A stretch of DNA of 64,000 nucleotides. Origin: Podarcis pityusensis. Taxonomy: Eukaryota. The position numbers are program-made. The stretch lies in assembly GCA_964106645.2 (NCBI GenBank), contig OZ067038.1, one strand, 5' to 3'. Shown in pieces: positions 43,955 to 56,500 of the stretch (within the stretch, counting starts at the first letter, position 1; the number at the start of each line of letters is the position of its first letter).

Positions 43955-46900
43955 GTGTGTCTGGTGCCTTTTGACCCCAGACAGGGCTCTTGTACCTTTG
44001 ACACAGCTTAATAAATAGAAATTCAACAGGAAAAGCATTGCCTATTTTGTATCTCCATGCCAGAAAAAATAGCACCTGACAAATTTATGCTACTTTTTGT
44101 TGTTCTTGCATTTGTTAGAGGTAGAAAGGCCATGCCACAGCAGATTGCAGAAATTCTACTCAGGAATATGAGTAGGTTATGCTTGTGGATGTAGCATGAG
44201 GATAGGTTTGAGAATTCTACAGAGTCAGGAGGTTCCATTCAGACTGGGGGCCCTTTCATGTACATTTTTAACAGCACCTCTGGGCTCTTTTAAAATTCTG
44301 AAAGTTGCCTGCTCAGTTTCATCACAGTAGTCATGTTCCAAGTTGTGGAAAAATGTAAAATGCTAGTAGTTTTCAGCAGGAGGAGAGAAGGGTGTCAACA
44401 TTCATGCCTTCTAGTGTTTGTTTAAGTAGAGGCTGGTGAGAGGGTGACTCAGATAAGAGAATAGGACTCTATATATTTCACTACAGGATCCTCTTTATGG
44501 ATGTTTCACGTTCTAAAATTCTGTATGTGCACACGCATACGTACACACATACAATATTCATGCCAGTAGGGTTTTGTGTCATTTGGTACAGCACTCCTTT
44601 TCTTCAGAAGGTGCTTAGATATTGGAAGCAGAGTCAGGATGATTAGACAATAGTGGAAGCAATGCATCCACAGAGACATATTGCTTTTGCTGTCACTGTG
44701 ACTAAATAGGTGACAGAAAATTCACCACCATGGAATCCTGAAGCCAACTGAGCCGACCAAACACCTGCTCTGAAACTGCAGCAGCTCCTTCTGACTATCA
44801 AGTTCCACATTTCACCTGTATCAGCCGTCATTTAAGCACATCCCACACCATGAAGACAATAAGGAGCTGCATACAAACTGCGGCCAGTTTGTTGATTAAA
44901 TAATTTTATATCCCTCCCTTCCTCCCAATACGGTGCACAGGGCAGCTTACAACAACCATGTCGGCCATTCTGAGGCTGCAGTACCTTTTACCTAACCACA
45001 AAGGATGGCGGCACTTGGAAAAAAACAACCCTGTGTGTAAGTTCAATACAGCTTAATGGAGATGAGAAGGAACTGTTGCTATTGTGGTTGGCCTGATGCG
45101 GACTTTTCTGCCCAGCTGCTTGTTATGTAAGTGTGAGAACTGGACATAGCAGGAAGAGATGGAGGCAGTTGGCTCTACTCTCTGCTGGCTCCCCTTGAGT
45201 CTCCGTTGATAGAGCACAGAAAGCAGGATGGCCCAGCACCATGACCATGGCTATAAAGGTCTTGCTTTGCAGTTCAACTGCCAGGGGGCTTTTCTTTATT
45301 AGACATTATGCACAAAGCCATCAAAAGTCATATAAATATAAATTCATACCACAGGGAGGCTCCCCCATAGAACCTTGTGGCTTGACAACAGGTTTGGGGG
45401 GGATCTGTGGTCCTCCAGATGCTACTGGATTACAAATACCATCAGTCACACACACCCCCATACACCCACCCACCCCATCCTACACGGCATACGTTACATT
45501 TTAGGGCTATGCCTCAGTGTAAGGATGAGGTAGTTTTGTCAGTGGGCCAAGCAAGAACATTTTTTTACAAGAATGTAAAAGCAGCTGGGGGGGGGGAGGG
45601 GGCTGAGGGTAACTCTTCCCTCCTGCACTATTATCCTGGTCTAAGTTGCCCCCTCCAAAGATGCTATATGTTCTTTGAGGGGAAAATATAGGTTCCAATA
45701 TAGTATTTGTAAGTGTTCCCCCACTGGACGAATAGCAGCTGGAAGGATTTTAGCTGGGAAGATGATAGGAGGAAAAAAGGTTAACTGCTGTTCCCCACCG
45801 CAGTGACCTTGATTCAGTTCAGCTCCCTTCCCCAAGCTGGTTTTAATATTTACCTTTTCAAAAACAAATGTAAAAAAATAAATAAATTATAGGAGCTCTG
45901 ATCACAGTTGCCAAGATGTCATATTGAAATTTGCCCTCACTATGCACTAGGCTTCTAAGATGCATGTGAAGTCAGAGCAAGTGTTTTCTCCCCCTCACTC
46001 ACAAACACACACACAAACATTGTTGTATATATATATTTTTCCTCCTGTACGTTTCCCCCCCCCCCCCCCGTAACACAGTTTCATGATAATATTTATACTG
46101 TGATCATTAAAAGAAACTTCTCTACCCAGAAGAAAACAACAGGTCCCACAACAGGTATAATCCAAAACTGGAGCTTACCCCAATGCGTCAGCACTTGTCA
46201 TCCTTGGCAGTGGGGAATAAATAGAGGAGAAGGAGAGAGAAAGAAAGGGACGTGGAAGCAGGTGGAGAAAAGAGTACGAAAAGCAGAGTGAAATACTGTT
46301 CGGAGAACTACATGGTCATAATTATTGCCACAGGCATCTGCTGCTGATGGAAGCACCAGTGGGGAATTACGCATGGGAAGGGGGAGGTTTTCATTTCCTA
46401 AACAAATATTTCCATATAGCTCATAATCATAGAAGAAGTTTGCATCTGGGATTATGGGGGCAGACACATCAAGTGTAAACGTGAAAAATAAAACATTGCT
46501 TGCCCACCCTCATTAAGCCAGTCTGTGGAGTTAGCAGTCCAGATCTGATTTGCGGTTGTTTTTATTTATGGCAAATAATCAGATTTTGCACAGTGGGCTG
46601 TACTGAAAAGGATGTGGATCTTCCTCCATTTTACTCATGTAAGATTCTCCTGCCCAGTGATGACCAGCTAGGAATCTCCTTTTCCACTGTGTATATCTAT
46701 ACTTTATATGTAGTGTTAAATGCACTGATAATTAAGACCAATATTTCTGAATGGGTATGAGGCCCGGGTGAACAAAGCTACAAGTGAAGGATGTAACTCA
46801 CTGGGAGTTTCTCCTGTTCTGCTGAAATATATAAAAACATATATGTATTGCCTTTCATGGCTGCTATTCATCTGAGTGAGACTCATGTAGAAATCCTGAG

Positions 46901-53547: not shown

Positions 53548-56500
53548 TGAGAGTAGCTAACATATTTTATGTAGTTTGCTTAAGGATTGGGGGCCCATCT
53601 ACTGCTGGTTAAATGGTTTACCAATACCAATTTTGGCTTCCCCAGGAGTACCACTGCCTTCCTCCATTTGCCAGCACAGAGGCAAGAAAGGTATATGGAG
53701 GAAGAGGTGGTTTCATCCCAGGGACTTTGGGAGATGGAGGAACCCTGGCTTGTCACCACCTGTTCCTTCCCCACTGTAGCTCTCCTGTAAATTAGTTACT
53801 GACTCATGGTCACAGAACACACTAGTGCAACCCCAACCCAGTGCCCTCCAGATATTATTGGACTACAACTCCCATCATCCCTTGTCAGCACGGTCAGTAG
53901 TCAGGGATAGTCCAGCATCTGGAAGGTGCCAGGCTGGGGAAGGCTGGAATAGTGTGCTGATGTGGAAGAAAACTAGCTATTGGTCCACCCAAAACTGGGT
54001 CTCTTTCTCTCAAGTGCAAGCAAATTTTTCCCCAGTGGAGAAGGTAAGTACTGCATCTTTAAGGAATAGCAGTGAGGTAAAGGAGAGGAACAGATTGTTG
54101 GTGTTTATACCTTTCTTCTTTGTTGAATTTGGGATTGGCGTCACAGATATCCAGGCTTTTACTGAACATTGTTTTACTATGGCAGGAACAAAGTGAGAAA
54201 ACAGAGTTACTAATGTGGACATTCATATGAGATTTGCCTGATGCAGTCCCTGAGACCCACCCACCCAAAGTTACCCCACCCATTTTGAAGAAATGCTCTG
54301 GAACAGGGATCAGAACTGTGTTCCTTTACCAATTGGGTGTCTTGCCCTGGAAAGGTACCAAATTTATGGGTGTACTCAACTTAGATTTGGCTTATACTAC
54401 ACCAATGAAGCAAGTGGGGAGATTTGGATACTGAATTTGATGATGCAGGCTCAAACCGCAACTCTCAAGTTGGTCATGGTGGCATGAGGCAAGATTCATT
54501 TTATACAAACCATGTCTCTAAAACTTCTTGCACATGCCTTCCCCAAACCCAAGTTAGCCGATGAGGAAATGCTGACCCAAAGTAGAATCATATTCCTCAC
54601 AGAGATTTGTGAGACATGTCAGAATTCAGCTGAGGCCACCAATATTAAACATGGTCTGAAGAATGCAGATTCAGTTAAGTGGTTCAAAATGGCCTCTGCT
54701 ATACATACCTTGTTCCCACAAGTCCCCCCTCCCCCCATGGCCTCAGCTGCAAACAAAGGCCTAAAAGACAGGTCTGGCCTATGGACAGTTGATCTGGAGT
54801 ATACCAGACCCAAATGAAAGTTGTCATTCCAGATAATCAGTGTAAAGTACCCACAAGAAAAAGGACACCAGTTTGTTGATGGAACCAACTCTCTCAGCTC
54901 CCCTTCCAGTTCTTAATCTGCTCTCTGTACTTCATTCTGTTTGCTTTAAGAGAAACCTAAAAGCCTATGACACCCAGGGAGAAAAAAAGAACCTGTTGCA
55001 GGAAAATGCACCATGAACGTGGCAGCTGCTATGGCATTGATGTATCTTGGGGGAGATGAAAGGCTGAGTTTAAATATGATGAAGAACAATGTACTAAAGT
55101 CCCCAGAATAGAAAGAATAAAAGGAAATGATGTTTACAGTAACCAAAACAGCAAATGGAGGAAGCAGGATTTTCAGTAGAGAAGTATTGAAAGCCAAGTA
55201 GGTTTTGGGATATTCAACACTGCATTTTATCTCTTCCCTCAGTAATAGTGAACAGGGAGGGAAGAGGCAAGGAATATATAAAGAGTCAGATACACTGGGG
55301 GGAAAAATGTAAAGCACTGAAGAAGCTAAGTAACACTTTTTCCTTACAGTACATTAGGGTTGGCAACTAGCAGGATTACAATAGGCCAGTCAAACCAGCA
55401 CAACAGATACCTGTGCACTTTTGAGTCTCAGGCAGCCAGGAAGACAGTGCATGGCAACAAAACATTCCAAGCACAGACAGACAGAAAGCAACTGAAGGTA
55501 GAGTTATGCTGGTACATAGCTCCCTCATCCCACCCCTTGGCAGGTTTCGCATGATATTAAATATTCTTCACAAATATGTCAAAGAAAGGATAGAGGTTCT
55601 TTCCAAAGCCCATTAATATTTGTCCTTTCAGCTGCATTAACTATGAACCCCAACTCTTATTTCCCCCCCAAACCTATGCCAAGATTTTGTGTGGTTTTGT
55701 GCCACAAACCTTGGGTTTTGTACCACCACCTGCAGTGTATTGACACATCAAAGGTTCCTAGGTAAGGATGCTGAGAATTATCTGTTATAAATCCTGTTAG
55801 AGCCACAATTTCCAAACTGTTTTAGGAAAGGGAATTAGTGCTGGACCACTTATGTCTCTAGTGAACATATACCTTGAGAATGTTGTTCTTAAGGGCAGAT
55901 GGAACTCTAACAAAAATTACCTTTCAAATGCTACTTGGAGCATAATACTATGCTGGGAGCCTTACAATGTTTGCCTATTGGTTGGATGTACTTGGGTTTT
56001 ATTACTGATGGTACTGACAGTCTTCCTGTCAGATGGTAACCATCTCCAAACACCTTTGTTGTTAATGAACAATCCATGTTCTGAATAAGTACACTGCCAG
56101 TAGTCTATGCTGTATGCCTTTGCAATCTGAAGATGAGGTGGCTCATCTGATTTACCAAAGTACAGTCAAAAAATAATAATTCATTCTATGTCTCTTCCAT
56201 TTCCCTGTTCACAATCACACATTGGTACCTTCCTTTAGCAGCTATGGCCTAGCAATCAACTATATGAGCAAAAGCGCAGATGTTGTATTTGGCATGCATT
56301 CTGACTCACAAAAATATGGACACATCCTTTGCTGTGTGGCACAACCTTTTGTATAAAAGCATCTCTTCGGAAAAAATTCTCTGGACTTCTGTCAATTTAT
56401 CAGTTTCTACTAAAGCAGTGTTCATGCTCCCCATCCCCTGCCAACATTCAAATAAATAAAAGCACACACTCTCATTTGGTGAGAGACAAAGCTGTGTAAT

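What the first reader, a model, noticed from the sequence alone, without database searches (positions are those of the whole stretch)
46179..54176. Battery of symmetric phase-2 cassette exons (66/66/54/24 nt) in one BRSK2 intron: a possible combinatorial linker code
Seen: the 18.7-kb intron between exons ~12 and ~13 holds four AG...GT segments (54111-54176, 51721-51786, 50292-50345, 46179-46202). Each is a multiple of 3, phase 2/2, stop-free in the BRSK2 frame, and has a UGC close to its 3' splice site. Established: UGC near the acceptor is the SRRM4/nSR100 signature of neural microexons, and I recall only the first peptide from mammalian isoforms. Inference: up to 16 in-frame combinations could remodel the Ser-rich linker between UBA and KA1.
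Basis: partly seen in the sequence, partly recalled or inferred. Interest (0 to 1): 0.75.

Follow-up and report, generated by a model that had tools for sequence, protein, structure and literature searches.

The report
Two known BRSK2 cassette exons, two decoys
Of the four small in-frame segments proposed in this lizard BRSK2 intron, two are real alternative exons already annotated in many vertebrates, and the other two look like the chance splice-site pairs that any long intron contains.

Summary
The window is not human. It is a lacertid lizard BRSK2 locus on the minus strand, and Podarcis raffonei isoform X2 matches it at 100% or 203 of 204 residues per exon.

All four AG...GT segments sit exactly where stated. 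They have the stated lengths, phase 2/2, an open frame and a TGC within 15 nt of the acceptor. These properties are not distinctive:
- The 18,714-nt intron holds 1,114 in-frame, stop-free AG...GT segments of 9-150 nt.
- 25% of them have such a TGC.

I compared the exon 12/13 junction in 317 named non-human BRSK2 protein models.
- **66-nt exon (54111-54176):** a cassette found from sharks to mammals.
- **24-nt segment (46179-46202):** a microexon found across tetrapods.
- **Combinations:** squamate models show all four states of these two exons (none, either one, both).
- **51.7k and 50.3k segments:** no model carries anything like them. The first has a poor pyrimidine tract. The second has a weak donor, and its acceptor sits next to a (GA)n microsatellite.

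The result is a 2-exon, 4-state switch that is already annotated, not a 16-state battery. SRRM4 control of the microexon fits its anatomy but is untested. DNA-level conservation and RNA evidence could not be examined.

The parts
57857..58007 (-). BRSK2 constitutive exon ('12'). It ends with the split codon AG| and is followed by gtaggt.
   Evidence: sequence; the 49-aa translation is 100% identical to BRSK2 of many vertebrates.
54111..54176 (-). Seg1: a real 66-nt cassette exon (22 codons, phase 2/2). Acceptor ...ttcctgccatag|, donor AAG|gtataa.
   Evidence: 192 of 317 named non-human models carry a similar peptide at this junction, and it is identical in Podarcis raffonei X2, Sceloporus, Lerista and Phrynosoma; it is present from sharks to mammals; the 16 residues translated from the intron just upstream are 15 of 16 identical to a Phrynosoma ab initio model.
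46179..46202 (-). Seg4: a real 24-nt microexon (8 codons, phase 2/2). Acceptor ...ccccactgccaag|, donor GGG|gtaagc.
   Evidence: The 9-residue product is identical in Podarcis, Anolis, Sceloporus, Phrynosoma and geckos. 69 of 317 models have a similar hit. Variants occur in birds, a turtle, axolotl, cetaceans, koala and pig.
46203..46264 (-). Upstream intron of the microexon. The 60 nt before the acceptor AG (46205-46264) are 85% pyrimidine. A TGC starts at -7, between that tract and an AAG acceptor.
   Evidence: The architecture is as described for SRRM4-dependent microexons in passages of PMC13174390.
39082..39142 (-). BRSK2 constitutive exon ('13'). Acceptor cag|G, donor AGG|gtaagt.
51721..51786 (-). 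Seg2: a 66-nt AG...GT segment with no support as an exon. It is most likely a decoy.
   Evidence: no similar peptide in 317 models; the 60 nt upstream are only 42% pyrimidine; rank 38 of 1,114.
50292..50345 (-). Seg3: a 54-nt AG...GT segment with no support as an exon. It is most likely a decoy.
   Evidence: only chance-level 8-9-residue matches elsewhere in the proteins; donor ACT|gtagga is at the 82nd percentile of intronic GTs.
50367..50455 (.). (GA)n/(CT)n microsatellite just upstream of seg3 on the minus strand. It gives the region its pyrimidine-rich character.
   Evidence: period 2, 44 copies. (similar arrays at 43.87-43.95 kb and 37.0 kb).
35981..36593 (-). Exon 14 with two acceptors. 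The distal one (tag|CCT at 36593) adds 135 Pro-rich residues. The proximal one (cag|GTC at 36188) gives the short form. This is another alternative element of the same linker, outside the finding.
   Evidence: 41 of 43 squamate models use the long form. The extension is 98-99.5% identical to Podarcis and about 70% identical to sharks.
30948..30983 (-). 36-nt AG...GT cassette between exons 15 and 16. It matches a 12-residue insert annotated in Anolis and geckos.
   Evidence: 13 of 43 squamate models carry it, and none of the 3 Podarcis models does; 11 of 12 residues identical to Anolis sagrei X6, tblastn E = 0.05.

Best explanation
The 18.7-kb intron of this lizard BRSK2 gene contains two genuine, evolutionarily old, frame-preserving cassette exons. 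One is a 66-nt exon (54111-54176). The other is a 24-nt microexon (46179-46202).

**How it works**
- Each can be included or skipped independently. This gives four versions of the disordered linker that follows the UBA domain.
- Both exons start after 2 nt of a codon and end with 2 nt of a codon, so the frame is always kept.
- Only the junction residue changes. It is Arg before the conserved Ser/Arg-rich motif that opens exon 13 when exon 12 or the 66-nt exon is the upstream neighbour. It is Gly when the microexon is.

**Shown versus inferred**
- Shown: the position of both exons, their conservation, and the four annotated states.
- Inferred: the microexon has the anatomy described for neuronal, SRRM4-enhanced microexons. 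That means a long pyrimidine tract, a UGC just before a weak AAG acceptor, and a strong donor. It is probably included mainly in neurons.

**The other two segments**
The 51.7-kb and 50.3-kb segments are most likely ordinary pseudo-exons, that is, chance AG...GT pairs.
For: **Organism and gene**
- Single-exon searches return BRSK2 of vertebrates.
- The best match is Podarcis. P. raffonei X2 is 100% identical on seg1, seg4 and four other exons, and 203 of 204 on the long exon 14.

**Junction survey of 317 named non-human models, out of 359 proteins held**

| State at the exon 12/13 junction | Models |
|---|---|
| no insert | 109 |
| seg1-like only | 116 |
| seg1-like + seg4-like | 69 |
| seg4-like only | 5 |
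| variants or truncated forms of those states | 4 |
| no exon-13 anchor | 14 |
| any other kind of insert | 0 |

**43 squamate models (with P0135 read)**
- 10 have no insert, 6 have seg1 only, 4 have seg4 only and 23 have both.
- All four states occur within one species, Crotalus tigris (X6, X2, X5, X1).

**Phylogenetic reach**
- Seg1-like peptides occur in sharks, sturgeon, paddlefish, gar, bichir, teleosts, axolotl, reptiles, birds and mammals.
- Seg4-like peptides occur in squamates, a turtle, birds, axolotl, cetaceans, koala and pig.
- Every one of them ends in Gly.

**Microexon anatomy**
- The 60 nt upstream are 85% pyrimidine and a TGC starts at -7.
- The donor is at the 99.2nd percentile of intronic GTs and the acceptor at the 93.3rd percentile of intronic AGs.
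- The published architecture is in passages of PMC13174390.

**Against seg2 and seg3**
- Local blastp-short of their products against the 317 models gives only 4-9-residue chance matches, with E of at least 2.7.
- Seg2's upstream 60 nt are 42% pyrimidine.
- Seg3's donor is at the 82nd percentile, and its acceptor region adjoins a (GA)44 microsatellite.
- 1,114 equivalent segments exist in the intron.
Against: - The support comes from protein models. Most are automatic RefSeq or Ensembl predictions. Combinations in such models are not proof of full-length transcripts, and absence from them does not exclude rare or lizard-specific exons.
- Only 3 Podarcis isoforms were seen (X1 and X6 of P. muralis, X2 of P. 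raffonei). Each search listed only the best 120 of more than 2,000 hits, and only 15 of the 118 and 15 of the 217 members of the two large clusters were listed.
- The seg2 and seg3 peptides could not be searched directly in the large protein set, because queries must be at least 40 aa.
- Seg2 and seg3 have splice-site scores within the range of the real exons here. For example, real exons 12 and 15 have acceptors at the 77th and 66th percentiles.
- No transcript data and no orthologous intron DNA could be examined.
- No GCATG motif lies within 300 nt of any of the four segments, so there is no Rbfox-type signal to add.
- SRRM4 dependence and neural specificity are pure inference.
Confidence: 0.82

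Rival explanations
1. All four segments are regulated cassette exons, giving up to 16 linker variants under SRRM4 control.
For: - All four have AG/GT, the correct phase, an open frame and a TGC within 15 nt of the acceptor.
- All rank in the top 3.5% of 1,114 candidates by a crude splice-site score.
- The seg3 product is Ser-rich, like the surrounding linker.
Against: - 0 of 317 named non-human BRSK2 models has a seg2- or seg3-like insert. That set includes 43 squamate models and 3 from Podarcis.
- TGC is present in 25% of that pool.
- Seg2 lacks a pyrimidine tract.
- Seg3 has T at donor position -1, and a microsatellite accounts for the pyrimidine-rich sequence upstream of its acceptor.
Confidence: 0.04
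2. Seg2 and/or seg3 are young, lacertid-specific or low-inclusion exons (new or cryptic exons). Annotation pipelines have missed or filtered them. Seg1 and seg4 remain the conserved pair.
For: - Their splice-site scores lie within the range of real exons of this gene.
- Only 3 Podarcis isoforms were visible.
- Microsatellite-derived pyrimidine tracts can create new acceptors. This last point is general knowledge, not tested here.
Against: - Podarcis X1 and X2 are the longest of the three Podarcis models seen and carry seg1 and seg4, yet they carry nothing else at the junction.
- Dozens of intronic segments score as well or better.
- There is no evidence of any kind for their use.
Confidence: 0.1
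3. Seg1 and seg4 are artefacts of automatic gene prediction that spread between annotations. They are not real exons.
For: - Most supporting sequences are predicted (XP_, Ensembl-derived UniRef) models.
- One model (Phrynosoma P0135) visibly starts inside the intron.
Against: - The peptides are conserved with lineage-specific substitutions. Seg1 runs from sharks to mammals and seg4 across tetrapods. Copied annotation would not produce that, and non-coding intron sequence would not retain it.
- Both have intact AG/GT and the right phase in this window.
- A preprint uses two human BRSK2 splice isoforms said to differ by 20 residues (passages of 10.1101/832279). Whether that difference is this exon was not checked.
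Confidence: 0.02

Closest known systems
The annotated 22-residue alternative insert of vertebrate BRSK2 (SAD-A), seen in RefSeq/UniRef isoforms such as the 758-759-aa mammalian X1 forms
   Same: - Same junction, between the exon ending ...HGQ and the exon starting SRSISG.
- Same length and phase.
- The peptide is identical in 4 squamate models and 21 of 23 residues match the bird version.
   Different: Nothing material. The lizard peptide differs from the bird one at two positions and from the mammalian one at more.
The annotated 8-residue BRSK2 microexon of sauropsids (bird, turtle and squamate isoforms), with variants in axolotl, cetaceans, koala and pig
   Same: - Same junction and 24 nt.
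- It ends in GG, so the junction codon becomes Gly.
- It is identical to the Podarcis, Anolis, Sceloporus, Phrynosoma and gecko peptide.
   Different: - Koala models show a 6-residue version, and a pig model shows a longer variant at the seg1/microexon boundary.
- It was not seen in the rodent, carnivore or non-human primate models examined.
- Human models were not used.
SRRM4/nSR100-dependent neuronal microexons (3-27 nt)
   Same: - Length of 24 nt and frame-preserving.
- Deep conservation.
- UGC between a long pyrimidine tract and the 3' splice site.
- Weak acceptor and strong donor (description in passages of PMC13174390).
   Different: Neural-specific inclusion and SRRM4 dependence are not shown for this exon. 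I found no main-text mention of a BRSK2 microexon. Catalogues in supplementary tables could not be read.
Pseudo-exons (decoy splice-site pairs) of long vertebrate introns
   Same: Seg2 and seg3 share every property of the 1,114 in-frame decoys counted in this intron, and no annotation supports them.
   Different: They score in the upper few per cent of decoys by the crude matrix.

Membership tests
BRSK2 (SAD-A) orthologue | Exon translations match BRSK2 rather than another AMPK-related kinase, in the expected order. | tested here: met
   the best hits are named BRSK2; ten exons are collinear with Podarcis raffonei X2 at 100% or 203 of 204 within exon bounds.
Conserved BRSK2 22-residue cassette exon (seg1) | Lies at the exon 12/13 junction, is 66 nt with phase 2/2, and encodes the conserved peptide. 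| tested here: met
   (AG|66 nt|GT). (192 of 317 models hit, 4 of them identical)..
Conserved BRSK2 microexon (seg4) | Lies at the same junction downstream of seg1, is 24 nt with phase 2/2, and encodes a peptide that ends in Gly. | tested here: met
   (identical in Podarcis and other squamates). (69 of 317)..
SRRM4-dependent neuronal microexon | Length of 3-27 nt and a multiple of 3. | tested here: met
   24 nt.
SRRM4-dependent neuronal microexon | [quoted passage not shown] | tested here: met
   TGC starts at -7 after a tract that is 85% pyrimidine over 60 nt. The motif is as described in PMC13174390 passages. Note that 25% of decoys also have a TGC.
SRRM4-dependent neuronal microexon | Weaker than average 3' splice site and stronger than average 5' splice site. 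| tested here: inconclusive
   A at -3 of the acceptor. The acceptor is at the 93rd percentile and the donor at the 99th of intronic sites, by a crude matrix built from recalled frequencies, not MaxEnt.
SRRM4-dependent neuronal microexon | Neuron-specific inclusion that depends on SRRM4. | not testable with these tools
   No transcript data or perturbation data were available.
Cassette exon (seg2, 51721-51786) | Present in at least one transcript or protein model, or conserved as an exon. | tested here: not met
   0 of 317 models. A direct search of the large protein set was impossible because the query is under 40 aa. RNA and orthologous DNA were not testable.
Cassette exon (seg3, 50292-50345) | Present in at least one transcript or protein model, or conserved as an exon. 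| tested here: not met
   0 of 317 models. RNA and orthologous DNA were not testable.
Cassette exon (seg2, seg3) | Usable splice signals: polypyrimidine tract, AG and a GT donor close to consensus. | tested here: inconclusive
   Seg2: 42% pyrimidine upstream, donor GGA|gtgagg at the 95th percentile. Seg3: acceptor at the 98.6th percentile next to a microsatellite, donor ACT|gtagga at the 82nd percentile.

The most novel reading that the evidence does not exclude
The two real cassettes may act as a two-bit switch on a phosphorylation site, rather than as mere spacers.
- Exon 12 and the 66-nt exon both end in AG. The microexon ends in GG.
- Including the microexon therefore replaces the Arg directly before the invariant Ser/Arg-rich motif at the start of exon 13 with Gly. 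Every seg4-like insert seen, from axolotl to whales, ends in Gly.
- That Arg sits at -3 and -5 of two serines, the positions basophilic kinases read. This point is general knowledge and an inference, not tested here.
- Neuronal splicing could thus gate phosphorylation of the BRSK2 linker.

A weaker second possibility is that seg2 or seg3 is a lacertid-specific new exon.
Probability: 0.12. Interest if true: 0.45.

Novelty: already known. Interest (0 to 1): 0.15.

Why it matters
BRSK2 is a neuronal polarity kinase and a neurodevelopmental-disorder gene (passages of PMC13542418 and PMC13743746). Its alternatively spliced linker is therefore of some interest.

The parts of this finding that are real are already present in public isoform models of this very genus. 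The parts that would be new have no support. The useful results are:
- The proposed 16-state 'code' shrinks to a conserved 4-state switch.
- Two further alternative elements of the same linker lie outside the finding: the long form of exon 14 and a 36-nt cassette.
- The microexon changes a conserved junction residue from Arg to Gly, which gives a testable idea.

Tried and rejected
- **Direct search with the seg2 product.** The first call failed on an E-value limit. The second failed because queries must be at least 40 aa. The open frame around seg2 is only about 29 codons (read by hand), so it cannot be lengthened honestly. I did not submit seg3, which is shorter. I opened four clusters and compared the short peptides locally.
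- **Splice-site scoring as a discriminator.** I rejected it as decisive. A proven exon (seg1) scores below an unsupported one (seg3), and real exons 12 and 15 have poor acceptor scores.
- **Repeat origin.** No second copy of the 500-bp neighbourhoods of seg1, seg2 or seg4 exists in the window. Only the microsatellite beside seg3 recurs.
- **Rbfox GCATG motifs.** None lies within 300 nt of any segment.
- **Other content of the intron.** The 10 longest open frames on both strands have no Pfam match. There is no Rfam family in the whole window.
- **Literature.** Five searches and passages of six papers gave no main-text description of these exons.
  - One table lists Brsk2 among Qki-regulated splicing targets in mouse (PMC6429586).
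  - One figure legend shows alternative exons in mouse circBrsk2 (10.1101/567164).
  - Neither says which exons are meant.

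
Full report
**What is there**

The window carries the 3' two-thirds of a BRSK2 gene on the minus strand.
- Exon '12' is 58007..57857 and ends ...CAG AG|gtaggt.
- Exon '13' is 39142..39082 and begins cag|G TCT CGC.
- The intron between them is 18,714 nt.

Their lengths are 66, 66, 54 and 24 nt, and each is open in the frame set by the split codon. All junction codons of all ordered combinations are sense codons, so the claim of 16 in-frame combinations is arithmetically correct. 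A TGC starts at -8, -15/-5, -15 and -7 of the four acceptors. The observation as written is accurate.

**Is it more than chance?**

No.
- In this one intron, 1,114 AG...GT segments of 9-150 nt are multiples of three and stop-free in this phase. 25.4% of them have a TGC within 20 nt of the acceptor.
- I scored sites with a crude weight matrix whose frequencies I recalled from the vertebrate consensus (not MaxEnt). The four rank 4th (seg4), 12th (seg3), 23rd (seg1) and 38th (seg2).
- Scored against all 1,289 AG and 1,036 GT sites of the intron, the ten constitutive exon sites of this gene span the 66th-100th percentile for acceptors and the 94th-100th for donors.
- The four candidates fall in or near that range, and so do many decoys. 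Splice-site strength therefore cannot decide the matter.

**Whose gene is it?**

I did not build or search a joined coding sequence.
- Exon 12 (49 aa) is 100% identical to BRSK2 of many vertebrates.
- The core of exon 14 is 100% identical across sauropsids.
- The long form of exon 14 (204 aa) is most similar to Podarcis muralis X6 at 98%.
- By local tblastn, Podarcis raffonei X2 matches the window at 100% on seg1, seg4 and four other exons, and at 203 of 204 on the long exon 14.

The window is a lacertid lizard, Podarcis or a close relative. I do not take it for human.

**The test that decides**

I set aside 38 without an organism name and 4 human models, and used 317 named non-human BRSK2 models. 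I read what lies between the end of exon 12 and the start of exon 13:

| State at the junction | Models |
|---|---|
| nothing but the junction Arg | 109 |
| seg1-like insert only | 116 |
| seg1-like followed by seg4-like | 69 |
| seg4-like only | 5 |
| variants or N-terminally truncated forms of these states | 4 |
| exon 13 anchor lacking | 14 |
| any other insert | 0 |

Local blastp-short of the four products against the same 317 models gave the following:
- seg1: 192 subjects, 4 of them identical.
- seg4: 69 subjects.
- seg2 and seg3: only 4-9-residue matches elsewhere in the proteins, with E of at least 2.7.

**Distribution**

- The 22-residue insert is present in sharks, sturgeon, paddlefish, gar, bichir, teleosts, axolotl, turtles, squamates, birds and mammals, with lineage-specific substitutions.
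- The 8-residue microexon is present in squamates, a sea turtle, birds, axolotl, cetaceans, koala (6 residues) and pig (a longer variant).
- Among 43 squamate models, 10 have neither exon, 6 have seg1 only, 4 have seg4 only and 23 have both.
- Crotalus tigris alone shows all four states (P0135 read).
- A Phrynosoma ab initio model starts inside the intron just upstream of seg1. Its first 16 residues match the window's translated intron at 15 of 16. This is an indirect hint that the acceptor region of seg1 is conserved between iguanians and lacertids.

**Seg2 and seg3**

- Seg2 has only 42% pyrimidines in the 60 nt before its acceptor.
- Seg3 has T at donor position -1 (ACT|gtagga, 82nd percentile).
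- The pyrimidine-rich stretch upstream of seg3's acceptor is a (GA)44/(CT)44 microsatellite at 50367-50455, of a kind that recurs at 43.9 and 37.0 kb.
- Podarcis X1 and X2 are the longest of the three Podarcis models seen and contain seg1 and seg4, yet contain nothing else at the junction.
- I conclude that seg2 and seg3 are most likely decoys.

Limits of this conclusion:
- The evidence is absence from predicted protein models.
- Only 3 Podarcis isoforms were visible.
- Each search listed 120 of more than 2,000 hits.
- The two short peptides could not be sent to the large protein set, which has a 40-aa minimum.
- No RNA and no orthologous intron DNA were available.

**How it most likely works**

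Shown: there are two independent, symmetric (phase 2/2) cassettes. Four linker versions are annotated. The junction residue before the invariant start of exon 13 is Arg after exon 12 or seg1, and Gly after the microexon.

Inferred: the microexon has a tract that is 85% pyrimidine over 60 nt. It also has a UGC starting at -7, an AAG acceptor and a GGG|gtaagc donor. This is the arrangement described for SRRM4-dependent microexons. Those have a UGC between the tract and the 3' splice site, weaker 3' sites and stronger 5' sites (passages of PMC13174390). Neuronal, SRRM4-enhanced inclusion is therefore the best guess, but it is untested. For the three longer segments the TGC carries little weight.

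**Beyond the finding**

The same linker has two more alternative elements.
- Exon 14 has a distal acceptor at 36593 that adds 135 Pro-rich residues. 41 of 43 squamate models use it, and it is conserved to sharks at about 70%.
- A 36-nt cassette lies at 30983-30948. It matches an insert annotated in Anolis and geckos, is found in 13 of 43 squamate models, and is absent from the 3 Podarcis models.

Its specific list of modules is half wrong.

**Literature**

Five searches and passages of PMC13542418, 10.1101/567164, PMC5693031, 10.1101/832279, PMC13743746 and PMC6429586 gave no main-text description of these exons.
- One preprint uses two human isoforms said to differ by 20 residues. I did not check whether that is this exon.
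- Supplementary tables, where microexon catalogues live, were closed.

**Verdict**

- The real parts are already annotated in this genus.
- Interest is low.

Noticed in passing
window 35981-36593 (-): Exon 14 has two acceptors. The distal one (tag|CCT at 36593) adds a 135-residue Pro-rich extension. 41 of 43 squamate models use it, and it is recognisable in sharks at about 70% identity. This is the largest alternative element of the linker.
   Followed up: partly
window 30948-30983 (-): An intact 36-nt AG...GT cassette lies between exons 15 and 16. 11 of its 12 residues match an insert annotated in Anolis sagrei, and a related insert is annotated in geckos. The 3 Podarcis models seen lack it.
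   Followed up: partly
window 46178-46204 and 39142 (-): Microexon inclusion changes the junction residue before the invariant start of exon 13 from Arg to Gly. Every seg4-like insert seen in other species also ends in Gly.
   Followed up: partly
window 50367-50455; also 43870-43952 and 37007-37046: Long (GA)n/(CT)n microsatellites recur in BRSK2 introns. On the gene strand they read as pyrimidine tracts and create strong-looking pseudo-acceptors, including several alternative acceptors (50399, 50390) that share the weak seg3 donor.
   Followed up: partly
window 48527-48562 and 53513-53547: Perfect trinucleotide arrays, (ATA)12 and (TAA)11.7, lie in the intron.
   Followed up: no
window about 62060-62720 (-): Open frames in the upstream intron look like the remnant of an interspersed repeat. 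I judged this by eye from the translations and ran no test.
   Followed up: no
window 12291-12338 and 11890-11928 (-): There are signs of alternative C-terminal exons. A 48-nt exon matches Euleptes X6 at 94% (16 of 17 residues), and a 13-residue match to Anolis sagrei X6 (77%) lies further downstream. Squamate isoform lengths of 801-903 aa suggest several C-terminal variants.
   Followed up: no
window 54179-54226 (-): The 48 nt of intron directly upstream of seg1 translate to a string that is 15 of 16 identical to the start of a Phrynosoma ab initio protein model. This suggests strong conservation of that acceptor region across distant lizards.
   Followed up: partly
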